A DNA stretch of 55,802 bases from a virus. Lineage: Duplodnaviria; Caudoviricetes. The position numbers and the translations under genes were made by a program. Below the pieces are notes generated by a model, which saw only the letters and a program-made list of their open reading frames with translations, did no database searches and was not told the origin of the DNA. Positions 7,154-27,599 of the stretch are shown in pieces; position 1 is the first letter of the stretch, and each line of letters opens with the position of its first letter. The stretch lies in IMG/VR virus record IMGVR_UViG_3300011252_000208, positions 1 through 55,802 of that record. One strand, written 5' to 3'.

Positions 7154-7633
7154 TTATGCTACAAGATTGCTGGCTTGCTGATACAGAACAGTCGCTCTGA
7201 TTTCACCTGCGTTAGTAGCACCTGTGGTAGTCCAAGTAAGGCGAACATCTGTTGTGTTAGATGTTTCAGCCCAAGACAATGCACCACCAGCTTCAGTGGT
7301 AGGGTACTTGCGTCCTGCGCCAGAAGCTACGGTAATCGAAAACCCGTTGATAAATGTGCCGTTTCCACCAGCAGTATCGCCAACGCTGAAAACCGCAGTA
7401 GCATTACCCATAGCTGTTGGGCAATCTAGCACAATATCAATAATTTGAGACTTTGCAGGAATAACTACGTCAGTGACGTTTGCAGCAGAAGCACCGCCTG
7501 CAAGAGAGCCAGTAGTAAAGGACTGTGCCATGACAACTTGGCCTGTGTTTTTAATATCAGAGCCTACGGTTGTTCCAGTAGTATCTTTGATTGTTCCTGC
7601 CAGAATTGGCCCGGAAAAAGTAGTTGTACCCAT
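7154..7633 (-). CDS. Capsid-associated/decoration protein
   Basis: MGTTTFSGP N-terminus; follows major capsid gene; RBS AGGAG. Confidence 0.65.
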   Translation of the reverse strand: MGTTTFSGPILAGTIKDTTGTTVGSDIKNTGQVVMAQSFTTGSLAGGASAANVTDVVIPAKSQIIDIVLDCPTAMGNATAVFSVGDTAGGNGTFINGFSITVASGAGRKYPTTEAGGALSWAETSNTTDVRLTWTTTGATNAGEIRATVLYQQASNLVA

Positions 7634-7708
7634 GTCTATCTCCTGTCGTGGGTTAAGTCAGACGCTATTTGCGCCTGTCAGGGATAAGCAAATAATACAC
7701 AACAATCC

Positions 7709-7740
7709 AAAAAAAGAAAGGGGGCAGATGAACTGCCCCC
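7709..7740 (-). terminator. Rho-independent terminator after major capsid gene
   Basis: GGGGGCAG-N5-CTGCCCCC stem followed by a T-rich tract on - strand. Confidence 0.8.
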
Positions 7741-7765: not shown

Positions 7766-8674
7766 TTACGCTCCGGGTGAACCAAATACGCAACGTGGGT
7801 CCGAGAAACCAAATGAATAACGCTCACGCGCTTTAAAGCGCATGTTGCCTGTATCAAAATCTGCTTCCATGTTTGTACGCATGGGAGAACGCTCAAAGTG
7901 CTTGAAGCCATTTGGCGCGTCAGTTTTGATAAAGAACGCATCAGTATCGGTGAGGAAGTGGTTAATTGTATAACCCTCTGGCACCATACCCATGTTTTTT
8001 GTCGCGTTAATATCATTGTCAGCAGTGCCGGGACGCAAGGTCGATTCCAGCAGACGATCTGCAATGAACTGAAGCTGTGGTGGAATAATCAGCTTAGTGC
8101 CACGAAGGGCAATAATCATATTCCGCTCATCAACAAAGCCTGAAATGTCAATCAGAGCATTTTCAAGCGAAGTTTCATTGAGGTCAGCCGCAGTAGCTGG
8201 TTCGTTACGGAATGTGCCGCCTTGAGCCAGTGGGTGTACTGCAGAACAAAGCTCAACACCGTCACCGCCTGTGAATGCCGCGTTGAAAGCGTTGTTAAGA
8301 ACTGCAGCAGCCTTAACTTGCTTAGAATGCGCCATAGAACGGGCAAGTGCCTTGGTGTAACGAGCGCCAAGACGATCATACAGATTGTCTTCAATCGCCT
8401 CTTCAGTCAAAGCGAATGCAAGAGCTACAGTTTCATGTGTGTAACGAGCGGTGTACGCTTCGTTAGCATCATCAAACGACACCCCTGATCCTTCACTTTT
8501 AGTAGGAGCATTGCCAAAACCTGAAAGCATAACTTCTTCTTCGAACGCACGATCTGACGATTCTGTGTCGAAAATTTCTGCATGCTCATTGTCGTAGCGG
8601 TTGTACTCCATGCCGAACAAAGCATTTAGGCCCGGCTCAAGCTCTTTGACAAGTTGTGAACGAGAAATAGCCAT
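7766..8674 (-). CDS. Major capsid protein
   Basis: MAISRSQLVKELEPGLNALFG...FKARERYSFGFSDPR capsid pattern; after scaffold; RBS AAGGAG. Confidence 0.9.
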   Translation of the reverse strand: MAISRSQLVKELEPGLNALFGMEYNRYDNEHAEIFDTESSDRAFEEEVMLSGFGNAPTKSEGSGVSFDDANEAYTARYTHETVALAFALTEEAIEDNLYDRLGARYTKALARSMAHSKQVKAAAVLNNAFNAAFTGGDGVELCSAVHPLAQGGTFRNEPATAADLNETSLENALIDISGFVDERNMIIALRGTKLIIPPQLQFIADRLLESTLRPGTADNDINATKNMGMVPEGYTINHFLTDTDAFFIKTDAPNGFKHFERSPMRTNMEADFDTGNMRFKARERYSFGFSDPRCVFGSPGA

Positions 8675-11769: not shown

Positions 11770-14223
11770 TTATCCTGTATTGGCTTTTGTTGCATTCATC
11801 ACCGCAATTTCACGCTGCGTCCGTATCCTATCTTCTGCAATTCTGGTCTTATCCTCTAAGGCTGCTTCAGAAACATCAATGCGCTGTTGATTTACCAGAA
11901 TGTCATTCTTTTCTTTCTCACGTTCTAACTCCTGCTTGGCTTCAAACTCTGAAGACTTGCGCTGCATATCAGCCGCTTTTAGCTGCAACTCTTGATTGCG
12001 TATGTCCACCAGTGGATCAGACTGCTGTGGCGGCTCTACAGCTTGCGCCATGCTTTCAACCATGTCTGCAATCATAACCGCAGCTATCTGGTCGATCTGA
12101 GGCTTAATTTGCTGCATCATCATTTGCATTTGTTCTGGGTTTTGTTGCACTTCAGGCGGTATTCTCTCCATAACCTGTGCCTGTGCCTGCTTTTCAGCCA
12201 TAAGCCCTATATGCTCCTGTATGTGGCCCTGTAAGGCCACAATAGACGCAGGGTTAAGCTGCATGGCAGGCGTAGACATTACCGCCATATGAGCCTCTAT
12301 GTGGGCCTGATGATCTTGCTCTGGAAATGCCTGCAGTGGAACGCCCATAAGCGCATTCTGGTTCTCTTTAGCAGCATTAGCAGGCGGGGGCGGTGGCGGT
12401 GGTGGTGGCAAAATAGCGTCAATGTTCGTAACGCCCAAAGCCTCGTACATCTTGCGATACGCCTGATACAGTCCCATAGGACCGCCGTGTATCTCAGGAT
12501 TAGACTGCACCAACTGCAATTCGCTTTGCGCCAAAGCAATGCGCTGCGACATGGAAAAGATGTTCGGGTCTGAAACAGGCAAAACATCAATGCGTTCATC
12601 AAAGTCTTGCGCTTTTACTTCAGGCCCAACTTCTTTGGACACCATATATGGATACGGCTGTAAGTCTTGCGAAAATATCTTCGACAAAAGTTTAAATTCT
12701 ATCTTTTGCGAATAATGCAATCGCTTATGAATAGCGGACATAACCTTAGTGCCACGTTCCATAATCGCCATAGTGGTGCCAACGGGCGTTTCACCGCTCA
12801 TCTCACCAACCTTCATGTCAGCCATAGATGCAAACCTGCGACCAGCATCAACCAGCGTACCCAAAAGGTTATACAACGTGCCAGAAGGCTCTTTGAACGG
12901 TAATGGCATCAAAGACGCCTGCAGCGTTTGTCCCACTACATCAATGTCACGAAACTCTCCGGGCTGTAGTGGGCTGTCTTCATCACGAATACGCGCACCA
13001 CGGGCTTTAAACCCCGCTGGAAGGTTAGCCAACGTGCCAGCATCAATAAGCTGACGCAGGATCGACGTTGAAGCCATAGCCAAGCCGCCAATCATATGCG
13101 TTAGGCCCAAGCCGTAAAAACCCAAACCGGGCAAAAACTTGTAATGCACAAAGTATTTTTGCGCACGTTTCATAGGGTCATCTTCTGGATAGTTGCGACG
13201 AATAGAAAGAATTTCATTTGTATCTTCTAAAATGGTCACAATGTACGGTAGCTTTAACCCCGTAGGCTCACCGTCCATTCCAATGTCCTCAAAGCCCTCA
13301 AGGTCCAAATCAGTGTGGACCTCATAAAGAGTTAAATCTGTAGAAGAATTAGAAGGGTGTACGCCCTGTATATCGTTAATTGACTCCGTAACCTCACTCA
13401 TCTGGTCATCAGATGTACCATCAGTCGGAATATCTATGTCGCTGTAAAAACCCGCAAGCTGCAGCTTTCTAACCTCGTTAGAATCCATCGTAATACGGTG
13501 CGTAATGCGGGGCGAAGTTGCCAAGTCAGTAGCGCCATATGGCACAATTAAATCTTCTGCATGAATAAAGTTGCTAACAGCGCGTTGCTTTAGTGGATCA
13601 CGGTAAACCTTCTTAAAGGTCGATCCAATCACAGGTAAATAAAACAACATTTGATCCAATTCAGGATCGTATTCTTCCATTTCATACGTGATCTGGTAAT
13701 TCATATAATCTTTGACACGCTCTGCCTGCTTAACAAGCATTTCGCTCTGCGCACCAATAACCTGCGTTCTAACAGGACCATTTGCAGGCAAAAGCTCACG
13801 ATACGCCTGCGCTTGAAACTGCGTAACACTTTCTGCCAACAATGGATGAACAACGCCTGACGAACCCTCAAAAGGCTCTGTGCGCTCTTCAGTCTTCATG
13901 CCTAGAAATTCTAGCCCCTGCTTGTACGTGTCTTCCCAATCTTCGCGGGACGCCAAGTCATCATCAATAAGGCCAACCAAGTCAGAAACAATGCGCCCAA
14001 GAATGGCAGGATCAACAACATCAGCCAAATTACCATCAAAAGGGACTTCTGGTGCAATACCCATTCCATCGTCATAATCACCAACTACAGCACTGCCGTC
14101 ATCAAACTCAAATACACCGGGTTCTGGCGGCAATTCAGGAATGTCTGCCAAAACGTTTTCTTCGGGCAAAATAGGCATTTCAGGAACACCACCCGGACCA
14201 GAATCACGATCTATAAAAGCCAT
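11770..14223 (-). CDS. Portal protein
   Basis: 817 aa; SREDWEDTYKQGLEFLG, HPLLAESVTQFQAQAY, FLPGLGFYGLG; downstream of terL. Confidence 0.88.
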   Translation of the reverse strand: MAFIDRDSGPGGVPEMPILPEENVLADIPELPPEPGVFEFDDGSAVVGDYDDGMGIAPEVPFDGNLADVVDPAILGRIVSDLVGLIDDDLASREDWEDTYKQGLEFLGMKTEERTEPFEGSSGVVHPLLAESVTQFQAQAYRELLPANGPVRTQVIGAQSEMLVKQAERVKDYMNYQITYEMEEYDPELDQMLFYLPVIGSTFKKVYRDPLKQRAVSNFIHAEDLIVPYGATDLATSPRITHRITMDSNEVRKLQLAGFYSDIDIPTDGTSDDQMSEVTESINDIQGVHPSNSSTDLTLYEVHTDLDLEGFEDIGMDGEPTGLKLPYIVTILEDTNEILSIRRNYPEDDPMKRAQKYFVHYKFLPGLGFYGLGLTHMIGGLAMASTSILRQLIDAGTLANLPAGFKARGARIRDEDSPLQPGEFRDIDVVGQTLQASLMPLPFKEPSGTLYNLLGTLVDAGRRFASMADMKVGEMSGETPVGTTMAIMERGTKVMSAIHKRLHYSQKIEFKLLSKIFSQDLQPYPYMVSKEVGPEVKAQDFDERIDVLPVSDPNIFSMSQRIALAQSELQLVQSNPEIHGGPMGLYQAYRKMYEALGVTNIDAILPPPPPPPPPANAAKENQNALMGVPLQAFPEQDHQAHIEAHMAVMSTPAMQLNPASIVALQGHIQEHIGLMAEKQAQAQVMERIPPEVQQNPEQMQMMMQQIKPQIDQIAAVMIADMVESMAQAVEPPQQSDPLVDIRNQELQLKAADMQRKSSEFEAKQELEREKEKNDILVNQQRIDVSEAALEDKTRIAEDRIRTQREIAVMNATKANTG

Positions 14224-14242
14224 ATTACTTTCCTATTGTAGC

Positions 14243-14342
14243 GTTGAGGCAGAAAAGCTCTACCAGTGAAAGGACAGAAACTGGGAGCCGCTGACGTAAC
14301 CCGTTGGGAGGTGCGCGGAACGCCAACCTAATCTGCCTCAAC
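14243..14342 (-). ncRNA. Structured RNA element upstream of portal, anti-SD loops
   Basis: 11-bp closing stem GTTGAGGCAGA/TCTGCCTCAAC enclosing two hairpins with CACCTCC and TCTGTCCTTTC loops. Confidence 0.5.
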
Positions 14343-14495
14343 CTCTTCAGCCATTACCGCGCCACAAGTCGGGCAGGTAATCGCAACTTCTTTTACAACG
14401 TCTTCGCCTTCTACATCTTCAATCACAACTGATTCGTCTGGCTGAAGAAAATAGTCCTTGTAAGGAATATCAACGTCGATTGTTATCTTGGGCAT
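14328..14495 (-). CDS. Small acidic protein with CPTCG motif (55 aa)
   Basis: Not in ORF track; start overlaps the stop of the upstream gene (TAATG). Confidence 0.6.
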   Translation of the reverse strand: MPKITIDVDIPYKDYFLQPDESVVIEDVEGEDVVKEVAITCPTCGAVMAEEVEAD

Positions 14496-14764
14496 TATTT
14501 TACACCACGAAATTTTGTGCCACGAAGTGCCGCGCCACCGCCACGGGAAAAACCTGAGTTCTCATCAGCCATAGAAGCGTCCATAGGCTGTGCATAATGC
14601 TCTTGCATAACGCCATCAACTTCAACGCTACCGCCGTGCATCATTTTCTTAACACTTCCACCGTATTTCATCTTTAACGGTTTACCAGACGCTTTGGCTG
14701 CATTCTTAGCCATAGCAATTCCTTTGGCATCATAGCTGTAATGCTTATCACCTACTTTGGGCAT
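14495..14764 (-). CDS. Small basic protein with xxGG motifs
   Basis: Start moved to MPKVG after AGGAG; MKYGGSV, MMHGGSV; ends RGTKFRGVK. Confidence 0.7.
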   Translation of the reverse strand: MPKVGDKHYSYDAKGIAMAKNAAKASGKPLKMKYGGSVKKMMHGGSVEVDGVMQEHYAQPMDASMADENSGFSRGGGAALRGTKFRGVK

Positions 14765-14774
14765 TCTATGTCTC

Positions 14775-16253
14775 CTAATAATATTCTCTGCGTTTGCTGT
14801 ATCTGTATTCGTCTTCATCATTATAGTCAGTTTTGGTCACGATAAAACCACCCTGTCTAAATCGCAGTATAGCCTGTGTCATCGAATCCGCCAAGTCATC
14901 ATGTTCACCATTCGGAAAAGCAGCGCATTCTTCCATAACTTCGTCAGCAAAATTAGTGTCAGGACACCACACAATGCCGCTCTCAAACACAGGTGCGCAA
15001 GAATGCATGCGCGTAAACTTATCAGCGCCCCTGCTAGGTGTAAATGGCGTCACAGGTATGCCCATACGCCGTAATTCCTGCGTTAAAGGCATGCCAGAAC
15101 CCTTTTGCTCTATTAAAACCATGTCAGGGTCATACTCATGGTACATATCATTGGCCTGTTCCTTTAATTCAGGAAACTCCCAACGCCCCTTGACTGCATC
15201 CAACAAAATAATGTGTTCTTCATCGCTGTTTTCTTCAAGAAATATACCCCAAGTCGTAATTGCGCTGTAGTCAGCACGATCACCCTTACTAAAGGCCGTA
15301 TCGTAACTTTGAATGATGTATGAACAAACGGGTGGGTCTTCTTTTTCCCAAATATTCCACCATTCACGCTTAATAATCGCACCCTCTTCAGCAGTAGGGT
15401 TCTGCATGTACTGCGCATTCCATTTTGCTACAGGAATAGACGCCTTTACGCCCTCAAGTTCATCCAAACTCCAATATTCAGGCCAAAGTGACTCGCCAGA
15501 AGGCATAATTGCAGGAAATTCAACAATTTCCCACTTATCAGCGCCCTTTTCGCTCTGTTTTGCCAGAACTTTCGCAGTTAAATCACGAATAGACCACCGC
15601 GTCATAACAATAATTATTGCGCCACCGGGCTGTAAACGCTGTCTAGGGCCAGAAGTGTACCACTCATACACATTATCTAGCGCAGTTGTACTAAGCGCAT
15701 CCTGTTCTGAAACTGGATCGTCAATAATTGCCAAATCAGCGCCACGACCAGCCAAAGCGCCGCCCACACCAACCGCATAATATTCACCACCGCCGCTGGT
15801 ACTCCAACGTCCACTAGCCTTTGCATCAGATGCCAAGCTGACTTTAGGAAATACGTCCCTAAATTCATCTGAATCAATCAGGTTTTTAATTTTACGACCA
15901 AAACCAACCGCCAACTCCGCCGTGTGCGTGGCCTGAATAATCTTCAGGTCAGGTCTGCGCCCCATAAGCCACGTTGGAAACAAATAACTGGCAAATTCAG
16001 ACTTCGTATGTCTAGGCGGCATGTTAATAATTAAACGTTTTAACTTACCGTCAGCCACAGCCTGTAGTTTTTCCGCATAAATCTTGTGGTGCCTGCCCTC
16101 AATAAACTGAGGCCAAACGTGCTTAACAAACGACATATAATTGCTGCTACGATCATCTCGGTCTTCTAACGTCGAAAGCCGCTCCAACATGGGAGCGACT
16201 GTCGCTAACTCTTCCTCAGTTAGATATTGCGCAAAGTTAGTCAGGTCGTTCAT
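14775..16253 (-). CDS. terL: Terminase large subunit
   Basis: MPPRHTKS Walker A, IIDDP Walker B, YDTA and HDDLADSMTQA nuclease motifs. Confidence 0.95.
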   Translation of the reverse strand: MNDLTNFAQYLTEEELATVAPMLERLSTLEDRDDRSSNYMSFVKHVWPQFIEGRHHKIYAEKLQAVADGKLKRLIINMPPRHTKSEFASYLFPTWLMGRRPDLKIIQATHTAELAVGFGRKIKNLIDSDEFRDVFPKVSLASDAKASGRWSTSGGGEYYAVGVGGALAGRGADLAIIDDPVSEQDALSTTALDNVYEWYTSGPRQRLQPGGAIIIVMTRWSIRDLTAKVLAKQSEKGADKWEIVEFPAIMPSGESLWPEYWSLDELEGVKASIPVAKWNAQYMQNPTAEEGAIIKREWWNIWEKEDPPVCSYIIQSYDTAFSKGDRADYSAITTWGIFLEENSDEEHIILLDAVKGRWEFPELKEQANDMYHEYDPDMVLIEQKGSGMPLTQELRRMGIPVTPFTPSRGADKFTRMHSCAPVFESGIVWCPDTNFADEVMEECAAFPNGEHDDLADSMTQAILRFRQGGFIVTKTDYNDEDEYRYSKRREYY

Positions 16254-19200
16254 AGGCTACCTAACCCCATACCAACTTGTCCGCCTCGGTTGTACCTGCC
16301 TACAGGAACGGGAGTTACAGGGTCAGAAAAGAAAATTTTGTTAGTTACACCAGCACGGTCTGTATGCTGACCGTGCGTTATCCCACCTTTATAATACAAT
16401 TCGGCTTCCGCCACAGTTTTTGGTGCTAACATTCTTTCATCTAAAGTCACTTTTTGCCCTCTAGCCCCTAAAGGAAGACTGTATTGTTGTGTTTTTGGAT
16501 TGTACTGTAATTTCTTGGCGTCTGGTCCTGTTCCAAACAACTTGGCATTCATCGCGTCAACGCCCAAAGCGTTTGTTGCTTGTGTTAAAATTTGGTTATC
16601 TGCGGGATTACCATATTCAAAGGAACTGCCCAGCTTACCCTCTTGTATTTGCGTTTTATACAAAACACCGGGAAGATCGCCAGTAACCGCAGTTTTAAAG
16701 TCTGTTAAATTCTTCTTAGCCTTTTCTGCATCCTGCGCTATTCTGTATGTTTGTGTAAGATCAATGTATTTTTTGCTTACATCGCCAGTATATTGCTTGC
16801 TTAAATCTCTTAGCTCCGCTCTTCTTTCTGCAATTTGTTTATTGGTTAAATTGGTTAAATTAGGAAAATCTCTGTTTATTTCTTCCATCCTTTTTCTATA
16901 ACCCGGATTGCCATAATCCATGTTTCCTCGGTTAGAAATCATGTCACGTATGGCGTACAATTCTTCATCTATTTGATCGTTAGCGCCGAAAACAACGCTC
17001 CTGTAAAATCCCTGCGGATCAATTTCACGCCTTGGATCACCCCTAAACCTACTGGTATCAAATATACTACTGTCTAAAATTCGTTCCGCAGCGGTTCTAT
17101 TTGCGTCCGCATACACATCTTCAGCCGATTTCACTCCTAAACTCGCATCTTTTACAGCATTATCAACATCATCTATTTTCTCTGAAAAGAACGTTTTAAA
17201 GTTGTCTGGTCTTCCACCCGCATCAGCAAAATCAACTCTTTCTTGTGCCGCCTTCATAGCAGCGGCAGAAAGATCGCGGTCTAAACCACTTCGCATAAAA
17301 CGATAACCTGTAGCCGTACTAGGAGACATTGATTGATAAGCGCCAGCCCCATAAGCCTTTCCTGAAGGAACCCCCGCTTCACCCAAAGCCTCTGGACTTC
17401 CCATTGGTCGATTGCCCTCACCTGTGCCGCTATAATCTGACCTATCACGACCTAAAGGAAATCCGGGTTCTGGATCATAAGCCACAGGGGAACCCTTGTA
17501 GAAAGTAAGCGTTTCATTGCTGGGTTTAATGTCAGTGGAAATCGTATTGTTTTTAGGTGTTAACTTACCTAGCCTTCCTAACGGCGTTACCGCAGTAGCC
17601 GCTGCAAGTGGACCCCCTATAATATTACCAACTCTATCACGCGCATTTGTTTCAGTGCCTAATCTACCAAACGCATCAAATACGCTATCAACAGCCCCGT
17701 AAACAGCTTTCGGCGGATCATACAAAGTATCAAATACACTTCGCCCAAGATCAACAGCCGCGCCGCCTAAGTATTCTAAAGGCTTTCCCTCTGGCCCTAT
17801 CACATCGTCATAAAAAGAAGTAGCCAATTCACCGCCCATTTCACCAGCGGCACCAAATACAGATTGATCGTAATTTGGCCCCAACATAAATGCAGAATTA
17901 ACACTTGCAGGCAAATAATTACTTATACCTTGCATGAAAGTTTCCTGCTTTGGCAAAGCCGCAGCGTTCTGCATCGTAGGCCCAACAGAACCATCGTTGT
18001 AGTTGTCTTGAACGCTGCTAATCGCATTGTTTACATATGGATCAAACGAAGCAGGACGTAGCTGTGGACGCAAAGAACGCTGTACTATGTTATCGGGTTC
18101 TGGCTCTGGATTAAAAAACCCACTTGACATTATATCAGGATAAACAGGAGCGGCTGCGGCGTCAGCGTAGAAGTTGTATGCGGGAGCAACGGGATCGTTA
18201 TCTACACCCCTGCCGCCTCTGCCGTAAACATCATCAGGAAAAGGATCATACGAAAAGTTTCTTTCGTCCTTTTCACTATCGCTCATGGACGGTGTACTTA
18301 CGCGAGTTCTTACAGGATTGCCAAATCCATCCTTAACAGTTGAACCACTTTCCGTCTGCATATCAACATAACCACCACGGGCCATGCCAACAGGCGCTAC
18401 ATTAGATTTTTTTTTTACGCTGCCACCCATAGCAGAAATAAAGCTATCAATCGCAGAACCCATGCCGTCACTAACAGCGCCGCCACCCGCAAAGTAATTA
18501 GGACGCCGAATGGTCAAACCACCAACGTCAGATGTTTCCTCTTCATCATCATCGTCAACAACATCACGAACGACAGGGCGTAACGTGCTAGGCAACGTAG
18601 CTGAAGCGATAGCATCCTCAATCGCTGTAGCAGGATTAGCAGCAACGCGCTGTATAGGCATGCACACACCGTTAACCCTACGAAAACCGGATGGGCAACC
18701 ATCATCGTCGCCGCCCGTATCATCTTGCTCTTTCGGAACCAAACGAACTAAACCGCCCTCTTTATCCTCAAAGCCAACAGGCTTGCCTTCCTCATAAACA
18801 ATCTTGCCAGTGTCATAATAAGCCTGCAAAGCCTTATTGCGGTTTTCTTGCGACATGGCCTTAAAGTCCATAGGTCCGGGCAAAAGAAAACTCAACGCCG
18901 TTTCAAAGCCGCTAAGAACCTTGTCAGCAAAACGATCCTCTACAACCAAATCGCCTTTCTTATAACCGGGGCCATCCTCAGTGTGACGCGCACCAGCCAT
19001 AGCGTTGCGAATTAAATTAGTCTCGCCCTTGTTAGGCGCTTTCATACTTCTGGTTAAAGCCGCATATGAATCAAAAATATCTGTACCACCGCCATCTGGA
19101 TCAGCGGTAGCAGGCTGGGCTAAGGCGTTAGCTCTGTTCGCAGCAGCCGCAGGGGAATCATAACCAGAAGCCCCAGCCAAAGATACAACGTTACCCGCAG

Positions 19201-21706
19201 AATCAATACCAGACACATTCATGGCTGCTTCTTCAGAAGTCATTGGCGCTCTGCCCGTTGCTTGACGCAAAGTCTTAGGCGGGTTTTGAATGTCTTCTCC
19301 AATAACCCGCCTCATATCATCAGCAATTCTTGAAACGTCAGTCGTAACTCCATTCAAAGGATCGCTAAGACCTGAAAACTGAAAAGAGCCGTCAGTGGAA
19401 GGTGTGCTGAAAATATCGCCCGGAGATTGCGGAAAAGTCTCATCTACAATGTTGCCCTTCGGATAAGCCGCTTCCTCTAAGGCCATAGTGTCAAAACCCG
19501 TAGGTGGATTAGCGTCAAGCCGCGCTTGTGCGTTTATAGCAGCAGAATCATCTTGCGTTAAAACCGTGCCGTCTGGTCTTGTGAATACAGGGCCGCTGGG
19601 AGTATCGTTGTAAACAATAGGATCATCGCTGCCCATTCCCGGCCTAGTAGAAGCGCCAGCAAGACCACCGCCTATTTGTTCGGGTTCAGCTTCTGGAAAA
19701 ACTGTATCCGCAGGCAAGGCTAGGGAATCCACCCTGCCATCGCCCGGAAAGGAACTCTCTGGGCCTATGGGACCAAACGGGCCTCGACGTAGGTTCGGCT
19801 GATAGCCACCATCAATAGCTGCATCAGCGCCGCCAAGTGAACCTTCACGCGCAAGCGCAGCGTCATCAGCCCTAGCCTCTGCCATAGCACGGCGATTAGA
19901 CGCCATAACTTCAGCAGGCGTAGGCTCAACAAACTCAGGCTCAAAAACACCAGTATAAGCGTCAGAACCTAAAGCGTTGATAGCCGCAGCTTCCGAAGCA
20001 TCAACACCCTGCGCCGCAGCCATAGCATTAGCTAAACCAGCGTCCTCAATCCTAGTCTTAGAGGAACCGCCCGGTAAGGCAATGTTCAACATATCAGGAC
20101 GCCTAGTGTCCCTGTTGAAAAACGCCTCAGTCTGATTCTCGTTAAGTAATTCAGGTTGAGCAAAATCAGGCGACGAAACAGCTTTGTTAACTCTCGGCGG
20201 AACATAAGAGCCGCCAATATCAATAGACCCACTCGGAACAATGCCACCACCCGGCGTCAGTCTTTCATTCACAGATATAGGAGAAGGCGCAAGGGGAGAT
20301 AACAAACTAATCGGGTTTTGGCCCAAAATATTAGGAACATCGGCAAATATCTCTGGACCCGCATCACCAGAACCAACAACAGGCGCTGCACCAACAGCAT
20401 CAATAGAACCAGTGTTGCCAAGCTGCGCGTTTAAATCACTGACCAAAGAAGAAATGTTTTCTAAATTCTCAACACTACCGCTCGTCCCAACAACAGGTTT
20501 TAAATCACTCTCGCTAAGAACCGTGCCGTCAGATAACTGTATGTCATTATTCGCACCAGCAACCTGTTTAGCTGCTTCAGCTAAAATCATATTCTTTATA
20601 TCATCACCACCAGACTCTGGCTCTGGCTCTGGAACAACTACAGGCGGGGCAGGAGCAGGGGGCGGAGTATAAACATAATTATCATCTAAGTAATTATAAT
20701 AATCATCGTCATCGCCACCACTATCATCGCCGCCACCACCAAAGTCTTTGTTCGGATTAAAATCAGGAATGCCTAAACTATCCAACAAATCATCAGTGCC
20801 AAATGGATCATCGTCGCTGTAATCCCTAGTCGTAGGATTACCAATAAATCCGCCAAGCGCCATCTTAACAGGATCAGATGAAACAGAACCGCCGTTAGCC
20901 ATAGGACGCGCAACCTGATAATTAGCCAAGTCCTGATAATCGCCAGCTTGAGAACCAAAAATGCCGCTCAAATATTCGCTGTCCCCAAGATTCCTCTGAG
21001 GACCGGGACGCTCAGTTATAGCTGGTTGAGGCGTGTTAAAACCGCCCATGCCGCCAAATGTCTGCTGCTCCTGCTGCGCAATGCCCTGTAAGAAATTATC
21101 GCGCTTCTGTTCAAACTGTGGATCACCGTACTGATTATCCAAATAATCACCATACTGATTTAAAGCATTAGCAGAACCCTGCTGCGGCATGCCGAAATTC
21201 TGATACGGCTGATACTGTTCTGCAATTTTAGGACCATATGGCATGCCTAATGGACCTAAACGCTGCGCTTGCGTAGAAGCAGCCTCTTGCGCCGCCTCTA
21301 TGCCAGAACCAACCATGCCGCCATACGACATGCGCTGAATAGGCTGCGGCATGTCGCTGTTCAACATCATTGAACCATCTGGCATCTGATGCATGCCGCC
21401 ATTCATAGAAGACTGCGGCATAGGACGAGGCTTCGGCGGAGAAGTCATGCGCTGCATGCGCTCACTAAATCCAGCACGACCAGCACTGCTACCACCAAAT
21501 CCACCTAAACCCTCAGTAATCGGAGCAATCGGCGGAGCCATAGGCGGCGGTGCCATCATAGGAGGGGGCGGCATGCCACCCATCATAGGAGGTGGCGGAC
21601 CCATAGGCGCAGAACCAACCATCGGAGCCGGTCCCAAAGGCTGTGAAGGCTGACCAGAAATCGGCGCTATGCCCATGTTGCTAGACGGTACATTAGGATT
21701 ATACAT
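16250..21706 (-). CDS. Large (1818 aa) probable internal virion polyvalent protein with C-terminal ART-like domain
   Basis: Pro/Gly/Met-rich N-terminus, acidic middle, repeated xxGG motifs; FYKGSP...GTGEG...AYGAGAY resembles polyvalent-protein ART-like domains. Confidence 0.6.
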   Translation of the reverse strand: MYNPNVPSSNMGIAPISGQPSQPLGPAPMVGSAPMGPPPPMMGGMPPPPMMAPPPMAPPIAPITEGLGGFGGSSAGRAGFSERMQRMTSPPKPRPMPQSSMNGGMHQMPDGSMMLNSDMPQPIQRMSYGGMVGSGIEAAQEAASTQAQRLGPLGMPYGPKIAEQYQPYQNFGMPQQGSANALNQYGDYLDNQYGDPQFEQKRDNFLQGIAQQEQQTFGGMGGFNTPQPAITERPGPQRNLGDSEYLSGIFGSQAGDYQDLANYQVARPMANGGSVSSDPVKMALGGFIGNPTTRDYSDDDPFGTDDLLDSLGIPDFNPNKDFGGGGDDSGGDDDDYYNYLDDNYVYTPPPAPAPPVVVPEPEPESGGDDIKNMILAEAAKQVAGANNDIQLSDGTVLSESDLKPVVGTSGSVENLENISSLVSDLNAQLGNTGSIDAVGAAPVVGSGDAGPEIFADVPNILGQNPISLLSPLAPSPISVNERLTPGGGIVPSGSIDIGGSYVPPRVNKAVSSPDFAQPELLNENQTEAFFNRDTRRPDMLNIALPGGSSKTRIEDAGLANAMAAAQGVDASEAAAINALGSDAYTGVFEPEFVEPTPAEVMASNRRAMAEARADDAALAREGSLGGADAAIDGGYQPNLRRGPFGPIGPESSFPGDGRVDSLALPADTVFPEAEPEQIGGGLAGASTRPGMGSDDPIVYNDTPSGPVFTRPDGTVLTQDDSAAINAQARLDANPPTGFDTMALEEAAYPKGNIVDETFPQSPGDIFSTPSTDGSFQFSGLSDPLNGVTTDVSRIADDMRRVIGEDIQNPPKTLRQATGRAPMTSEEAAMNVSGIDSAGNVVSLAGASGYDSPAAAANRANALAQPATADPDGGGTDIFDSYAALTRSMKAPNKGETNLIRNAMAGARHTEDGPGYKKGDLVVEDRFADKVLSGFETALSFLLPGPMDFKAMSQENRNKALQAYYDTGKIVYEEGKPVGFEDKEGGLVRLVPKEQDDTGGDDDGCPSGFRRVNGVCMPIQRVAANPATAIEDAIASATLPSTLRPVVRDVVDDDDEEETSDVGGLTIRRPNYFAGGGAVSDGMGSAIDSFISAMGGSVKKKSNVAPVGMARGGYVDMQTESGSTVKDGFGNPVRTRVSTPSMSDSEKDERNFSYDPFPDDVYGRGGRGVDNDPVAPAYNFYADAAAAPVYPDIMSSGFFNPEPEPDNIVQRSLRPQLRPASFDPYVNNAISSVQDNYNDGSVGPTMQNAAALPKQETFMQGISNYLPASVNSAFMLGPNYDQSVFGAAGEMGGELATSFYDDVIGPEGKPLEYLGGAAVDLGRSVFDTLYDPPKAVYGAVDSVFDAFGRLGTETNARDRVGNIIGGPLAAATAVTPLGRLGKLTPKNNTISTDIKPSNETLTFYKGSPVAYDPEPGFPLGRDRSDYSGTGEGNRPMGSPEALGEAGVPSGKAYGAGAYQSMSPSTATGYRFMRSGLDRDLSAAAMKAAQERVDFADAGGRPDNFKTFFSEKIDDVDNAVKDASLGVKSAEDVYADANRTAAERILDSSIFDTSRFRGDPRREIDPQGFYRSVVFGANDQIDEELYAIRDMISNRGNMDYGNPGYRKRMEEINRDFPNLTNLTNKQIAERRAELRDLSKQYTGDVSKKYIDLTQTYRIAQDAEKAKKNLTDFKTAVTGDLPGVLYKTQIQEGKLGSSFEYGNPADNQILTQATNALGVDAMNAKLFGTGPDAKKLQYNPKTQQYSLPLGARGQKVTLDERMLAPKTVAEAELYYKGGITHGQHTDRAGVTNKIFFSDPVTPVPVGRYNRGGQVGMGLGSL

Positions 21707-21768
21707 GCAACAATAGTCCCCATAAGCAATAAAACTTGCGCCAAGACTAAATCATCACAACAAATTAA

Positions 21769-22023
21769 TCAATCCATATACGAAACACGCTCCAACATGC
21801 CGTTCCTAACCATGCTGTCAGCAAAACTAGACCTACTGTCATAATAATAAGTCCCCTTGTTCCACTCACACATCTCAATCGCCGTCCGCCGCATATATCC
21901 ACCCTCGTCAGGACAAGGAAAATCATTCGCCCACTTGCGACGATACATTACAGGTACAACCTCTGACAAAGACTGACCCTCAAACTCATAATCACCGCCG
22001 TACCTAATTCTAAACGTTGCCAT
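21769..22023 (-). CDS. Hypothetical protein
   Basis: GGAG RBS; overlaps upstream gene. Confidence 0.6.
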   Translation of the reverse strand: MATFRIRYGGDYEFEGQSLSEVVPVMYRRKWANDFPCPDEGGYMRRTAIEMCEWNKGTYYYDSRSSFADSMVRNGMLERVSYMD

Positions 22024-22639
22024 TACTCAACTCCATCCTTTTACCAATTAAACTTTTCAACGAAGCCACAATTAAATCCATCGTCTTCCTACCGCAATTC
22101 GGAGTTCTAAGCCAATGATGCTCCCGGTATTCAAAAATAGATAAATTAGGGTCCGTTGGATACCGCAACTCATCACTAACAACCCTAATGGCGCGGCTAA
22201 CAACATGCTTGCTGTACGCATCACCAACATCATAAATAGCCGAAATAACGGAATGAGGGTGAAAATTATACTGATCTTCCAATATCTCATCAATGCAAGC
22301 TTCCGAAGCACGGTAAGCATAAGTAAGGCTCCACAACAACTTACCGCCATGAACCTTTTCACTGCATAAATTCTGAGCCAAAATCTCATAATCCTCTTCC
22401 GCACGACGAAAAAATGCAGTCTTATGACGCTCAAAAAATTGCTTACTTAACGGTATGCCAGCAGCGTCATAAGCCGCAACAAACGCAGGAAGAATATGCC
22501 GCATATCTACCCAACCCTTCTCAGATAAGTGCATGAACCAATCTTTCTCAGTTAACCTGTCAAAGCTAATAGGATACTGACCGTCCAAAACCAAAAAACT
22601 CGCATCTGCATCATCGTTCTTATCAATTTCCCACTTCAT
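22010..22639 (-). CDS. Protein with C-terminal RNA polymerase alpha-CTD-like motif
   Basis: WLRTPNCGRKTMDLI resembles alpha-CTD LLKTPNLGKKSLTEI. Confidence 0.55.
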   Translation of the reverse strand: MKWEIDKNDDADASFLVLDGQYPISFDRLTEKDWFMHLSEKGWVDMRHILPAFVAAYDAAGIPLSKQFFERHKTAFFRRAEEDYEILAQNLCSEKVHGGKLLWSLTYAYRASEACIDEILEDQYNFHPHSVISAIYDVGDAYSKHVVSRAIRVVSDELRYPTDPNLSIFEYREHHWLRTPNCGRKTMDLIVASLKSLIGKRMELSNGNV

Positions 22640-22758
22640 TCGTACATCCCCGCTGTCTTACGTTGAAACTTTTCCACAAACTCACGCAATTCCTTATTCT
22701 CAGCCTTCAATCGCTCAATCTCTTCCAACAAACGCTGATATTCATCACGGTTAATCAT
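22636..22758 (-). CDS. Small coiled-coil protein (40 aa)
   Basis: Not in ORF track; MINRDEYQRLLEEIERLKAENKELREF; ATGA overlap with next gene. Confidence 0.55.
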   Translation of the reverse strand: MINRDEYQRLLEEIERLKAENKELREFVEKFQRKTAGMYE

Positions 22759-22759
22759 A

Positions 22760-22927
22760 TCAAACCCCCACTTCGCCATCACTCTCCCTAGCCATGTAAA
22801 CATAAACCAAACTACGACACGCAGGGCAACTTAAATTCGTTACCATGCAATGATCATCATCCTCATCATCATCTAAATCATGATCCCCGCCCCAAATTAA
22901 CTCAGCCTTGCAATGCCAACAATTCAT
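22760..22927 (-). CDS. Small zinc-ribbon protein
   Basis: CWHC...LIWGGDHD...LSCPAC. Confidence 0.65.
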   Translation of the reverse strand: MNCWHCKAELIWGGDHDLDDDEDDDHCMVTNLSCPACRSLVYVYMARESDGEVGV

Positions 22928-22949
22928 ACCAAAACCCCCCAATTCAACA

Positions 22950-24047
22950 TTACCTGCTCATCTCACGCTCAAAAATAGGAACACTATCCTCAAACGTCAC
23001 AAAATCATCAGCAACCTCATCATCAAAACGCATCGAACCAGTAAACTCAAAAATAGAATTTCTATGCAATCCAGCTAAACCAACCTTAACAAAATAATCA
23101 TTCCAACGAAACTCACGTAAACCACGAAAATGAGACTTCACAAACCTCTTACTACCACCAGAACCCTTCCGATAATGACCCCTAACTATATGAAAAATCT
23201 TCTTCGTATGACCATTCTCATTAACAACCTTGTCACGGTCAGAAAAAAAATAAGGCGTCCGTAACATATCAATCGCAAAAGATACCGAATGCTTGCCGCG
23301 ACTAACACGTACCGTTACACCACTCTCCTGCATCATAGCGCCAGAACACGCAGCCCAAAATAAAGAAGCTATCTGCTCATGAACACTGCAACCACGCTCC
23401 CGCGCAGTCTCAACTAAAAAATCAGGCCAAGACCACTCCATACGAACATATCCACGACCATTGCGCAAATTATAATTCTTAGGCTGACAAATCTTCAATG
23501 GAATAACCTCGCCAGAATCAGATATACTCAAATAAACACTGCACATGCCAGAACGATTAGAACCAGAAGAAACACTAGAACGATAAATTAAACCAAGCTG
23601 ATATACAGTTAAATTACTGCCCTGAACATTATATGGACGCTTCTGCTTGGAAAAATATAAAAAAGTTAAACGAGAAAGATTGTCTTGTTCACAATCAGAA
23701 ACCAAACTGCCGTCAGTCATAATAGATAAATTGCCGTTTAAATGAAGGCAACCAAAACTAGGAAAATCCTCGAAATTCGCCGTGCGGTCCAAACTAAATA
23801 AAGCGTCCTTAGACATAATGCTGCAACCAACACGACTAAACATCTTGTAATGAATAGGATCGTTTCGCTTGAAAACACCTAAACAATTAAACGCACTGTC
23901 CAAACTATCCAATAAATCACCCAAATAATAATGAGCGCCAAAATGCTCCGCAGAATGACGCTTCGTCTTGCGCCTCTTCCTGTCATTAAAATGCTTTACC
24001 TCAGTCCGCTGAAAAAAAGACCTTATCCAAGCAATCAACCTGTTCAT
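22950..24047 (-). CDS. Hypothetical protein (365 aa)
   Basis: Long ORF; HIVRGHYR motif; own promoter and GGGAG RBS. Confidence 0.75.
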   Translation of the reverse strand: MNRLIAWIRSFFQRTEVKHFNDRKRRKTKRHSAEHFGAHYYLGDLLDSLDSAFNCLGVFKRNDPIHYKMFSRVGCSIMSKDALFSLDRTANFEDFPSFGCLHLNGNLSIMTDGSLVSDCEQDNLSRLTFLYFSKQKRPYNVQGSNLTVYQLGLIYRSSVSSGSNRSGMCSVYLSISDSGEVIPLKICQPKNYNLRNGRGYVRMEWSWPDFLVETARERGCSVHEQIASLFWAACSGAMMQESGVTVRVSRGKHSVSFAIDMLRTPYFFSDRDKVVNENGHTKKIFHIVRGHYRKGSGGSKRFVKSHFRGLREFRWNDYFVKVGLAGLHRNSIFEFTGSMRFDDEVADDFVTFEDSVPIFEREMSR

Positions 24048-24079
24048 AACAAAAATACTCCCATATCTCCTACATAATC

Positions 24080-24110
24080 AGCCTATGCCGCTTTGTGGGA
24101 TTATGTCAAG
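24080..24110 (-). promoter_or_regulatory. Sigma70-type promoter with ATCCCACA box
   Basis: - strand CTTGACATAATCCCACAAAG upstream of 24047. Confidence 0.55.
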
Positions 24111-24310
24111 CGTTTAGCATATTATTATTTTTTTTTATAAAAAATTTTTTTGGGGAACCGTGCGCGGGGAACTTGGTGTAGTGTTGTGTCTGACCGCGAG
24201 TCCGAAAAGGGGGTGGGCCGTCTTTATATGATCCCGATCCCGATAAACCGTTTAAAATCAACAGGGTACCTGCAAACGCTAACATTTGTTCGTGTTTGGC
24301 ATCGCGCATG

Positions 24311-24338
24311 AAAAAACCCGCGACATGCGCGGGTGTTT
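24311..24338 (-). terminator. Rho-independent terminator of amidoligase unit
   Basis: ACCCGCG-N5-CGCGGGT stem followed by T6 on - strand. Confidence 0.75.
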
Positions 24339-24361
24339 CCGATTGGCGTATGTCGCGCGGT

Positions 24362-24538
24362 TTATGTGATGCCAGAAAATCGCGTTGCGCGACTAGGCGC
24401 GGCAATCTGTGGCGCTGGGTGTGAGACTGTTTTAACATGTCTGGTATTTTTCTTGACCAGCTTATTGCCGCGATAATTGGCTGGGCGTTTTGATTGCGCG
24501 GCGCGGCGCTGTGCGCGATTTGGTTTGGTATTCTGCAT
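24362..24538 (-). CDS. Small Arg/Lys-rich peptide (58 aa)
   Basis: Not in ORF track; GAAGGGA RBS; MQNTKPNRAQRRAAQSKRP; ends just before the terminator. Confidence 0.6.
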   Translation of the reverse strand: MQNTKPNRAQRRAAQSKRPANYRGNKLVKKNTRHVKTVSHPAPQIAAPSRATRFSGIT

Positions 24539-24612
24539 TGTGTTTCCCTTCGCTGTGGTGGCGGTATTGCCAGTGATAGAGCCGCGCGTTGCGGCTCTAC
24601 TGCGAGCAATAC

Positions 24613-25806: not shown

Positions 25807-25855
25807 TTTTTACTCTCCTATAAGGCGAACGGGTTATTCCGTGTCGCTCTTTATA

Positions 25856-25886
25856 TATATAGCCCTATTTTCAACCTACTTGTCAA
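25856..25886 (-). promoter_or_regulatory. Sigma70-type promoter of amidoligase
   Basis: TTGACA-N17-GCTATA(TA); AGGAG RBS downstream. Confidence 0.65.
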
Positions 25887-25935
25887 CACCATTATCACGA
25901 AATGTTTCAACTTGTAACATCAAGTGATAAGACTT

Positions 25936-25993
25936 ACCATTGGTCAACTTTTAAACCATTAGTCAATTTTCAAAACATTCAGTCAACTTCCAA
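25936..25993. repeat. Three ~19-bp tandem repeats, each with TTGAC on - strand
   Basis: ACCATTGGTCAACTTTTAA / ACCATTAGTCAATTTTCAA / AACATTCAGTCAACTTCCAA. Confidence 0.7.
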
Positions 25994-26005
25994 ACCGTTG
26001 GAAAG

Positions 26006-26021
26006 CCGAACAATTGTTCGG
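26006..26021. promoter_or_regulatory. Perfect palindrome CCGAACAATTGTTCGG (type copy of a dispersed site)
   Basis: Further copies at 26735, 27707, 27817, 27924; variants at 7749, 10535, 24274, 31294, 48033. Confidence 0.8.
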
Positions 26022-26075
26022 GTTTGTATGTGCGTGGTGCGGTGTGGATATGATAAAGGGCCGAGGTATATAATA

Positions 26076-26143
26076 CCCCGACCCCGACCCCGATTGATCC
26101 CGACCCGATCCCGAAGGCCCGACCCCGAAGAGTCAGGCCCGAT
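26076..26143 (+). repeat. Cluster of CCCGA repeats
   Basis: CCCCGACCCCGACCCCGATTGATCCCGACCCGATCCCGAAGGCCCGACCCCGAAG. Confidence 0.85.
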
Positions 26144-26145
26144 TG

Positions 26146-26349
26146 TTAAGAAGAAACGTCCGCTTCTGTTTCTTCTAATACTTCCATTGCGTGCTCAAGT
26201 GCTTCCTGATCGCTATCAATACCGTAGCAAGTAAAGCAATGGTAATCGACCCACTGCCCCCCGATAGGTGCCTGAAGATTAAAAGTTGCGGCTTCATTCC
26301 ACTGAAGCCGAAAATGCTCACCGTTGTGTTCTACTTCCCAATGTTTCAT
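26146..26349 (-). CDS. Small acidic hypothetical protein
   Basis: Start moved to MKHWEV (GGGAG RBS, TAATG coupling). Confidence 0.65.
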   Translation of the reverse strand: MKHWEVEHNGEHFRLQWNEAATFNLQAPIGGQWVDYHCFTCYGIDSDQEALEHAMEVLEETEADVSS

Positions 26350-26794: not shown

Positions 26795-26799
26795 AAAGT

Positions 26800-27207: not shown

Positions 27208-27209
27208 GT

Positions 27210-27515: not shown

Positions 27516-27546
27516 GTGTCTGTCCTTTCATTTACTAGACAAACAA

Positions 27547-27575: not shown

Positions 27576-27599
27576 CAATTAAAATAATAAAGTTGAAAT

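What the first reader, a model, noticed from the sequence alone, without database searches (positions are those of the whole stretch)
14243..14342. Late-transcript RNA structure with a perfect 12-nt antisense match to an early-gene RBS
Seen: an 11-bp stem (14243-14253 with 14332-14342) encloses two hairpins with anti-SD loops. One reads UCUGUCCUUUCA (14278-14267), exactly complementary to UGAAAGGACAGA (27530-27519), the RBS of the first gene of the 27515/GGCT operon. Inference: an RNA embedded in, or excised from, the packaging transcript that shuts off early translation.
Basis: partly seen in the sequence, partly recalled or inferred. Interest (0 to 1): 0.75.

Follow-up and report, generated by a model that had tools for sequence, protein, structure and literature searches.

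The report
Conserved folded RNA before phage portal gene
The stretch is a real, evolutionarily conserved folded RNA that sits just in front of the portal gene of a group of uncultured marine phages and displays a ribosome-site-like loop, but the proposed pairing with an early gene's ribosome site is not shown to be more than a lucky match.

Summary
Observation confirmed. The 11-bp stem, two hairpins and the exact 12-nt complement to the RBS of gene 27515 are all in the sequence.

The stretch is the leader of the portal gene (11770-14223, minus strand) and forms a three-way-junction RNA. Rfam 15 has no match even at E<=10.

- Spread: it occurs in many uncultured marine phage contigs, 47 distinct sequences aligned.
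- Closing stem P1: paired in 99.6% of cells, 7 of 11 pairs with compensatory changes, 0 of 500 shuffles reaching the covariation score.
- Hairpin P2: shows NCUCCC unpaired in its apical loop in 42 of 47 independent folds.
- Position: P1 ends 18-19 nt before the portal AUG in 39 of 47.
- Inheritance: the element follows the portal tree.

- The match is a nominal outlier for that loop (about 0.003 by shuffles).
- About 11 equally long antisense matches to start regions occur window-wide, near chance.
- Loops of four other lineages show nothing comparable.
- Loop and target never vary informatively.

Best reading: a new cis-acting portal-leader RNA. A trans anti-SD role remains possible. The scan had not noted this element on other DNA.

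The parts
14243..14342 (-). Core of the portal-leader RNA, a three-way junction of P1, P2 and P3 (100 nt)
   Evidence: Fold. Covariance model R1 scores 112.8 bits on the sense strand. Antisense matches listed for relatives score <=17 bits; none is listed for the window. Single copy in the window.
14332..14342 (-). P1 5' arm GUUGAGGCAGA. It lies in the last codons of the upstream 55-aa ORF.
   Evidence: P1 is paired in 99.6% of cells in 47 distinct sequences, and 7 of 11 pairs change on both sides.
14243..14253 (-). P1 3' arm UCUGCCUCAAC, followed by a conserved R-C
   Evidence: By my reading of the alignment, the position after P1 is a purine in 46 of 47 and the next is C in 46 of 47.
14290..14327 (-). 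P2 hairpin (8 + 3 bp) whose apical loop carries CCUCCC (14306-14311). This is the family's hallmark loop.
   Evidence: NCUCCC is unpaired in an apical loop in 42 of 47 independent MFE folds: CCUCCC 36, UCUCCC 6, ACUCCC 4, CCUCUC 1.
14256..14289 (-). P3 hairpin (5 + 4 bp with a UA bulge).
   Evidence: The loop is the same in the window's close group. It differs in L015 and L017, and P3 is missing in the L019 class.
14328..14330 (-). Stop codon UAG of the upstream 55-aa CxxC ORF (14328-14495), lying in the P1/P2 joint
14224..14242 (-). Linker with the portal Shine-Dalgarno AGGAAAG (14228-14234). P1 ends 19 nt before the AUG.
   Evidence: The distance is 16-22 nt in 47 of 47 sequences and 18-19 nt in 39 of 47.
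11770..14223 (-). Portal gene (817 aa)
   Evidence: PHROG 1216 portal protein, E = 8.9e-44.
27519..27530 (-). Proposed target UGAAAGGACAGA in the leader of gene 27210-27515. It is half buried in a local hairpin (UGUUUGUCU / GGACAGACA).

Best explanation
The stretch is a previously undescribed, conserved structured RNA that forms the 5' leader of the portal gene in a group of uncultured marine podophage-like viruses. Their distant cultured kin are Pelagibacter phages HTVC027P and HTVC023P.

Anatomy (shown):
- A G/C-rich closing helix P1 of 10-14 bp.
- A hairpin P2 that presents the invariant pentamer CUCCC (usually CCUCCC, like the 3' end of 16S rRNA) in its apical loop.
- In most lineages a variable third arm, P3.
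- The helix ends a fixed 18-19 nt before the portal AUG, about 5-8 nt before the Shine-Dalgarno.
- The element is inherited with the portal gene.

Mechanism (inferred): I think it acts in cis on portal expression as a translational operator or leader.
- The folded junction sits at the 5' edge of the 30S binding site.
- Its invariant parts are the loop CUCCC, the four P1 base pairs GUUG/CAAC and the following A-C. These would serve as the recognition surface for one common factor.
- That factor would most likely be a phage late protein, or else the ribosome.
- The factor would set how often the portal, needed at only 12 copies per virion, is initiated. The copy number is recalled general knowledge of tailed phages, not a result of any call here.

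For: - Structure: 47 distinct sequences give P1 99.6% paired and 7 of 11 pairs changed on both sides. 0 of 500 shuffles reach the covariation score, and slid controls pair 37-47%. RNAalifold finds P1 on its own.
- Every one of the first 23 distinct sequences folds alone into a closing stem that encloses hairpins.
- Strand: sense 44-114 bits against antisense <=17 bits. Many G.U pairs would be A.C on the other strand.
- Hallmark loop: 42 of 47.
- Position: 16-22 nt to the AUG in 47 of 47, and 18-19 nt in 39 of 47. The element is always directly before a portal start, although the upstream sequence differs between lineages.
- Inheritance: on a portal tree of 81 rows the element is in 27 of 27 evaluable rows of two clades and in 0 of 48 of the rest, with 2 changes needed.
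- In a second portal clade 63 of 80 loci hit strongly, plus 2 partial or weak hits. Seven loci lack upstream DNA and 8 lack the element.
- No promoter or terminator lies at the site, so it sits inside a polycistronic message.
Against: - No experiment and no identified binding partner.
- Secondary-structure prediction leaves the SD unpaired whether or not P1 is formed, so simple masking is not the mechanism.
- The loops pair worse with the window's own portal start region than with most others (rank 68 and 72 of 89).
- Own versus swapped loop/start-region energies do not differ: -11.68 against -11.43 kcal/mol, with 949 of 5000 permutations as low.
- An invariant C-rich apical loop is also the signature of trans-acting anti-SD RNAs (PMC4615179, passages read).
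- Linkage to the portal gene could be mere adjacency.
- Part of the family (22 of the 47 sequences) was first reached with a sequence pattern. The second clade was reached by protein only and removes that bias.
Confidence: 0.55

Rival explanations
1. Trans-acting anti-SD riboregulator. The junction is cut out of, or acts from within, the late message. Its C/U-rich loops pair with Shine-Dalgarno regions of other messages. In the window's lineage the P3 loop pairs with the RBS of gene 27515 and shuts off that operon.
For: - Exact 12-nt complement.
- Best duplex of 89 start regions at -20.7 against a next best of -13.9 kcal/mol, with 1 of 300 shuffled loops as good.
- P = 0.0028-0.011 by word shuffles.
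- The same pairing exists in L286, and in L295 with one G.U.
- The invariant CUCCC apical loop resembles the aSD loop motif of cuckoo/CcsR-type sRNAs and the UCCC loops of RNAIII. [quoted passage not shown]
- L090, L102 and L130 carry aSD-like motifs in both loops.
Against: - About 11 equally long antisense matches to start regions occur in the window, against about 8 expected.
- P3 is the non-conserved arm and is absent in one class.
- Six loops of four other lineages give no outlier against their own start regions: 0.115, 0.965, 0.030, 0.385, 0.545 and 0.270. Three of those genomes are incomplete.
- No compensatory change could be observed.
- The target leader is invariant even before diverged genes, and its SD is partly in its own hairpin.
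- GGGAGG, the perfect partner of the conserved loop, never occurs on the sense strand.
- A fixed position 18-19 nt before the portal AUG is not needed for a trans RNA.
- No free product is seen (contigs only).
Confidence: 0.2
2. Translated leader that enforces coupling. A short ORF runs through the element, so ribosomes coming from the upstream gene melt the structure and stop beside the portal start. Portal translation is thereby tied to upstream translation, while the folded form limits free initiation.
For: - One frame (codons starting one base after the first P1 pair) is free of stops through the whole core in 39 of 47 sequences. By my own grouping that is 16 of about 20 lineages. The other two frames are open in 14 and 2 of 47. 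Shuffles give 0.16-0.49 per frame.
- In many lineages an in-frame ATG lies 5-20 nt before P1. At -5 it stands in a TAATG (stop TAA overlapping ATG), as read. In the L230 type I read a GTG at the place of L241's ATG.
- These ORFs stop within about -16 to +18 nt of the portal AUG.
- In the window the upstream 55-aa ORF stops inside the P1/P2 joint, so its ribosomes must open P1.
Against: - The window's own group has no ATG in that frame.
- Core lengths differ by non-multiples of 3 and the predicted peptides are frame-shifted between lineages, so no peptide is conserved.
- Conserved motifs place stop triplets in the other frames, which may by itself leave one frame open.
- The lineages are related, so the counts are not independent.
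Confidence: 0.15
3. DNA-level site (packaging signal, origin or protein-binding inverted repeat), or a small mobile inverted-repeat element.
For: - It lies between terminase and portal genes.
- It has an 11-bp terminal inverted repeat and is present in only some portal clades.
Against: - G.U pairs are frequent in P1 (for example 19 of 47 at one pair), and the model scores 44-114 bits on the sense strand against <=17 antisense.
- One copy per genome in every record searched.
- Presence follows the portal tree with 2 changes.
- A scan of 185,579 species' genomes gave only 1 true hit, on a 5.5-kb contig, among 19 pattern matches.
Confidence: 0.03

Closest known systems
Mu-gpT-DE RNA (Rfam RF03012)
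   Same: A conserved structured RNA inside a phage head-gene string, placed directly before the next gene's start. A copy lies in this same window at 7631-7683(-), at 64.6 bits, ending on the ATG of gene 7154-7633.
   Different: No sequence or model similarity: nothing from Rfam matches 14100-14500 at E<=10. The architecture differs (three-way junction with a CUCCC loop), and so does the gene (portal).
Cuckoo / alpha-r14 sRNAs (CcsR/RSs0680, SmrC14/NfeR1) of Alphaproteobacteria
   Same: A C-rich anti-SD-like motif is shown in hairpin loops while the stems vary freely. [quoted passage not shown] One lineage here (L090) has the full CCUCCUCCC in P2, and L090, L102 and L130 have a second CCUCCCC loop.
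   Different: Cuckoo RNAs are 2-4 adjacent hairpins without a multiloop, and each loop carries CCUCCUCCC. Here a closing helix makes a three-way junction and only NCUCCC in one loop is conserved. The element is phage-borne and fixed before one gene.
UCCC-loop regulatory RNAs of Staphylococcus (RNAIII, Rsa RNAs)
   Same: A UCCC motif in apical loops is proposed to seed pairing with ribosome binding sites (as summarised in PMC4615179).
   Different: Unrelated organisms and architecture, and those are free-standing transcripts. Nothing beyond the loop motif was compared.
Translational operators just upstream of a Shine-Dalgarno (E. coli thrS operator, phage T4 gene 32 and regA targets, RNA-phage coat-protein operator). 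Recalled, not from any call.
   Same: A folded RNA at a fixed short distance from the start site, with invariant loop and helix-base nucleotides that a protein reads to set initiation.
   Different: No binding protein is known here. The resemblance is in logic only.
phi29 pRNA. Recalled, not from any call.
   Same: A three-way-junction RNA of about 120 nt tied to the portal and packaging machinery.
   Different: No sequence or model similarity was found, and the two loops show no complementary pair. The element lies in an mRNA leader. I list it only as the boldest analogy.

Membership tests
Any Rfam 15 family | Covariance-model match at or near the gathering score | tested here: not met
   Whole window at gathering threshold: only Mu-gpT-DE, at 7631-7683. 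Region 14100-14500 at E<=10: 0 matches.
tRNA / tmRNA-like gene | Cloverleaf detected by ARAGORN | tested here: not met
   0 genes in the window.
Cuckoo (alpha-r14 / CcsR) sRNA | 2-4 adjacent hairpins and no multiloop | tested here: not met
   The hairpins are enclosed by a covarying closing helix. The definition comes from PMC4615179.
Cuckoo (alpha-r14 / CcsR) sRNA | Every hairpin loop carries CCUCCUCCC | tested here: not met
   Window loops are CGCACCUCCCAA and UUUCUGUCCUUUCA. The family core is only NCUCCC, in one loop. The full motif occurs only in L090.
Trans-acting antisense RNA against gene 27515 | Complementarity to the target start region beyond chance | tested here: inconclusive
   12 nt exact. 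For this loop P = 0.003-0.011, but about 11 comparable events occur window-wide against about 8 expected. Six loops of other lineages give no outlier.
Trans-acting antisense RNA against gene 27515 | Loop and target co-vary in relatives | tested here: inconclusive
   The target 12-mer is identical in all nine relatives' leaders that were read: L154-L159 and L278, L286, L290 and L295. Only 3 genomes hold both sites, and the sole change is A->G giving G.U. No contig of the L015 or L017 lineages reaches the target.
Trans-acting antisense RNA against gene 27515 | A discrete RNA product | not testable with these tools
   Only assembled contigs of RNA libraries were available. One 420-nt contig spans 14095-14514. 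Contigs cannot show ends.
Intrinsic terminator | G+C-rich hairpin followed by a U run | tested here: not met
   No terminator-like site is listed at 14224-14345. P1 is followed by GCUACAAUAGG.
Cis-regulatory leader of the portal gene (the reading I adopt) | Constant position relative to the regulated start, and co-inheritance with that gene | tested here: met
   16-22 nt in 47 of 47 and 18-19 nt in 39 of 47. The tree needs 2 changes.
Cis-regulatory leader of the portal gene (the reading I adopt) | A measured effect on expression of the downstream gene | not testable with these tools
   No culture and no reporter data.

The most novel reading that the evidence does not exclude
A conserved RNA scaffold (P1 plus the CUCCC hairpin) embedded in the late packaging message carries a fast-evolving guide loop (P3). 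Each phage lineage retunes that loop against one of its own early messages. In this lineage 12 nt of P3 clamp the ribosome site of the 27515 / gamma-glutamyl-cyclotransferase operon and switch it off once late transcription starts. The conserved CUCCC loop dampens strongly SD-led host or early messages in general.
Probability: 0.12. Interest if true: 0.75.

Novelty: new variant of a known kind. Interest (0 to 1): 0.45.

Why it matters
- Structured RNAs in phage late operons are few, and their functions are mostly unknown.
- This one has strong comparative support and dozens of variants from many marine samples. It has a simple architecture, a strictly fixed place before one essential low-copy gene, and a loop that copies the ribosome's own anti-Shine-Dalgarno.
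- That makes it a clean test case for how phages set the output of single genes inside long late messages, and a candidate new class for RNA-family libraries.
- If the trans reading were right, it would be an example of a phage using part of a structural-gene message as a timed silencer of early genes.

Tried and rejected
1. Known families. Rfam and ARAGORN found nothing at the site.

2. DNA relatives among deposited phages. No blastn match. Four cultured relatives found through the portal protein (023Pt_psg01, HTVC027P, DSL-LC04, CRP-902) lack the element, 0 of 4. The 104-nt gap before the HTVC027P portal gene has no fold signal, z = 0.01.

3. Pseudoknot between the 5' flank GAGG and the loop CCUC. 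Rejected. In the clade reached by protein only, the flank is also GAAG or GGAG. Each flank form occurs with CCUCCC, UCUCCC and ACUCCC loops.

4. Masking of the portal SD by the loops.
- No lineage-specific fit: 949 of 5000 permutations were as low.
- The window's own start region ranks 68 and 72 of 89.
- Only L090, L102 and L130 show 8-9 bp of fit, by my own reading of the sequences.
- Removing the P1 5' arm lowers predicted SD accessibility in some lineages (L008, L090, L102, L259, L223) but not in the window, 0.46 to 0.51. I left this as a lead.

5. Mobile element. Rejected.

6. Small protein. Rejected because the peptides shift frame between lineages. The open frame itself is kept as a rival.

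7. Promoter just upstream. None above chance: 10 sites against 10.0 expected in 6 kb, and none at the site.

8. Loop/target covariation.
- I searched for genomes holding both sites through the target gene.
- I searched the loci in hand.
- I searched through the 1818-aa protein: 4 loci, none reaching the target.
- I searched through the 365-aa protein: no relatives.
- I searched through the 209-aa protein in metagenomes: 27 loci, two with both sites.
- No informative variation was found.

9. Expression. RNA-library runs hold parts of the stretch, but only as contigs. Parts without cover, and contig ends at 14262 and 14326, say nothing.

10. Hosts. One true hit sits on a 5.5-kb contig binned with an alphaproteobacterial MAG. 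That is too weak to name a host.

11. Print.
- Two text searches were made. For one search I saw the listing only, and nothing was relevant.
- For one search I saw the listing, and passages of PMC4615179 were then read.
- I found no description of this motif.

12. Earlier notes of this scan. Nothing on look-alike DNA.

Full report
WHAT IS THERE

The window is a 55.8-kb, about 98% complete virus record, with most genes on the minus strand. The finding lies in the 104-nt gap between two genes:
- a 55-aa CxxC ORF (14328-14495), and
- the portal gene (11770-14223; PHROG 1216, E = 8.9e-44).

The large terminase is two genes upstream at 14775-16253.

- P1: GUUGAGGCAGA (14342-14332) pairs with UCUGCCUCAAC (14253-14243).
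- P2 (14327-14290) has CACCUCCCAA in its loop.
- P3 (14289-14256) has the loop UUUCUGUCCUUUCA.
- The fold has dG -42.9 kcal/mol and z = -2.76.

UCUGUCCUUUCA (14278-14267) is the exact complement of UGAAAGGACAGA (27530-27519). That sequence lies just before the ATG at 27515 of a Kyano_Gp96-family gene, which is followed by a GGCT-family gene.

IS THE STRUCTURE REAL?

Portal-based retrieval from IMG/VR gave 80 loci at 73-100% protein identity. In 26 of them, and in the window, the same kind of element lies directly before the portal start.

A strict sequence pattern found 74 stretches. All loci then in hand yielded 22 distinct sequences under that pattern, or 23 once L070's variant loop is allowed.

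Each of the 23 distinct sequences, folded alone, gives a closing helix that encloses hairpins.

A covariance model (R1) scores members as follows:
- 54-114 bits on the sense strand in the first set, against 12-17 bits for the reverse strand;
- no match at E<=1 in 19 sampled loci of element-free portal relatives;
- at most 20 bits for 18 of 19 pattern matches in 185,579 species' genomes. The nineteenth (86 bits) is a 5.5-kb contig.

Because the pattern could have created false 'invariants', I took a second portal clade by protein only (query: the L148 portal). Of its 80 loci:
- 63 have the element at 38.6-71 bits;
- 2 give partial or weak hits;
- 7 have no upstream DNA;
- 8 (the 71%-identity group) lack it.

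With 47 distinct sequences aligned to the model:
- P1 is paired in 99.6% of cells.
- 7 of 11 pairs change on both sides.
- 0 of 500 shuffles reach the covariation score.
- Sliding one arm by 1-3 columns drops pairing from 87% to 37-47%.
- RNAalifold recovers P1 on its own.
- One divergent member (L259) has lost about four bases from both arms at the base of P1.

G.U pairs are frequent in P1. Together with the strand asymmetry of the scores, this places the structure in RNA of the portal-sense strand, not in DNA.

WHAT IS CONSERVED?

Reading the unbiased clade together with the first one:
- The four base pairs at the foot of P1 (GUUG/CAAC) are present in 46-47 of 47.
- The two nucleotides after P1 are a purine (46 of 47) and then C (46 of 47), by my reading of the alignment.
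- NCUCCC sits unpaired in the apical loop of P2 in 42 of 47 independent folds: CCUCCC 36, UCUCCC 6, ACUCCC 4, CCUCUC 1.
- The P2 stem and all of P3 vary freely. P3 is absent in the 80-nt L019 class.
- The distance from the last P1 pair to the portal AUG is 16-22 nt in all 47 and 18-19 nt in 39. The upstream sequence differs between lineages.
- On a portal tree of 81 rows the element is present in 27 of 27 evaluable rows of two clades and absent from 48 of 48 of the rest, needing two changes.
- There is one copy per record in all nine records searched.

This is the behaviour of a vertically inherited leader of the portal gene, not of a mobile repeat.

No Rfam family matches, even at E<=10. ARAGORN finds nothing. 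The four cultured relatives checked lack the element.

Twelve-base complements are common:
- There are 222 inverted 12-mer pairs in the window, against about 100 in shuffles.
- There are 15 non-trivial 12-mers (about 11 events, some 13-14 nt long) antisense to predicted start regions, against about 8 expected.

For this one loop, however, the match is an outlier:
- P(>=12 nt) is 0.0028 for shuffled loops and 0.011 with CCUUUC kept in place.
- By duplex energy the 27515 start region is first of 89, at -20.7 against -13.9 kcal/mol, and 1 of 300 shuffled loops does as well.

Against a function:
- The loop is in the arm that is not conserved. L017 differs at 8 of 16 loop positions while its stems are unchanged. 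L015 has a shorter, unrelated loop.
- Six loops from four other lineages, tested against their own records, give shuffle fractions of 0.115, 0.965, 0.030, 0.385, 0.545 and 0.270. One of those records is complete and three are partial.
- A fifth record, G006, offered no loop of 5 nt or more in its fold.
- Over the eight loops scored across lineages, one nominal 0.003 has a few per cent probability by chance.

- The target 12-mer is identical in all nine relatives whose leader I could read, even where the gene behind it is only 57-70% identical.
- Only the window, L286 and L295 hold both sites.
- The only change is loop A->G, which keeps a G.U pair.

The target's SD region is also partly closed in its own 9-bp hairpin.

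Assembled contigs from RNA libraries cover the region, and one of 420 nt runs through the whole element. Contigs cannot show ends, so a free product is neither shown nor excluded.

HOW IT MOST LIKELY WORKS

Shown:
- A covarying junction.
- A fixed distance to the AUG.
- Invariant loop and helix-foot nucleotides.
- Inheritance with the portal gene.

Inferred: it works in cis at the portal start.

Simple SD masking is unlikely:
- The SD is predicted open.
- The window's loops pair poorly with its own start region, rank 68 and 72 of 89.
- Own and swapped loop/start pairs do not differ.
- The portal SD varies (AGGAAAG, AGGAG, GGGAGG, AAAGG, AAGGGAA) while the loop does not.

A partner that is the same in all lineages fits better. 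I therefore favour a translational operator or leader read by one factor, either a phage late protein or the 30S subunit. The helix foot would sit at the edge of the ribosome's footprint. This step is inference.

Two further facts may belong to the mechanism:
- In the window the upstream ORF stops inside the P1/P2 joint, so its ribosomes must open P1.
- One reading frame is free of stops through the core in 39 of 47 sequences, against 14 and 2 for the other frames and 0.16-0.49 in shuffles. In many lineages, though not the window's, an ATG lies 5-20 nt before P1, often overlapping the upstream stop.
- The predicted peptides are not conserved, which would fit coupling by read-through of the structure. 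I keep this as a rival.

COMPARISON WITH WHAT IS KNOWN

In placement the nearest thing is Mu-gpT-DE, of which a copy lies at 7631-7683 in this window. It is a structured RNA directly before the next head gene.

In loop chemistry the nearest are the cuckoo/CcsR/NfeR1 sRNAs with CCUCCUCCC loops and the UCCC loops of RNAIII (PMC4615179, passages read). The element fails their defining features, which are tandem hairpins without a multiloop and the full motif in each loop.

It is thus a new RNA motif of a known general kind. I found no description in Rfam 15 or in two full-text searches. Supplementary tables of motif surveys were not open to me.

VERDICT

- Observation: confirmed.
- Interpretation: partly supported.
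- A new, well-supported portal-leader RNA: confidence about 0.95 that the structure is real and selected.
- That it acts in cis on the portal gene: 0.55.
- A trans anti-SD role: about 0.2. Within that, the specific shut-off of the 27515 operon is about 0.12.
- Interest: moderate.

Noticed in passing
window 7631-7683 (-): A Mu-gpT-DE RNA (RF03012, 64.6 bits) ends on the ATG of gene 7154-7633. It follows an intrinsic-terminator-like hairpin plus U run (about 7700-7740) after the 302-aa gene 7766-8674. It is a second structured leader in the late gene string.
   Followed up: partly
window 27516-27640 (-); also L154-L159, L278, L286, L290, L295: The promoter-leader cassette before gene 27515 has these parts: a terminator, TTGACA, two copies of TGTGGGATA, a 9-bp hairpin that buries part of the SD, then the ATG. 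From TTGACA to the ATG it is identical or differs at up to 5 positions in nine relatives. That includes two in which the gene behind it is only 57% and 70% identical.
   Followed up: partly
whole window: CCTCCC is rare: 3 matches on both strands against 14.7 +/- 4.2 in shuffles. All three are on the sense strand, so GGGAGG never occurs in sense-strand RNA.
   Followed up: no
window 14239-14345 (-) and 46 relatives: One reading frame through the RNA element is free of stop codons in 39 of 47 distinct sequences, although the predicted peptides shift frame between lineages.
   Followed up: partly
relatives L025-L042, L047-L069 against L070, L140, L211: In element-free relatives the upstream gene's stop overlaps the portal ATG (TAATG). 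In several element-bearing lineages the same TAATG precedes the element. I did not check the idea that loss or gain happened between short AATG repeats.
   Followed up: no
L139/L276 against window 12326-27223: A 14.4-kb relative is collinear with the window but mosaic. Identity is 97% over terL-portal and 80-93% elsewhere, and parts of the 1818-aa protein gene have no DNA match.
   Followed up: no
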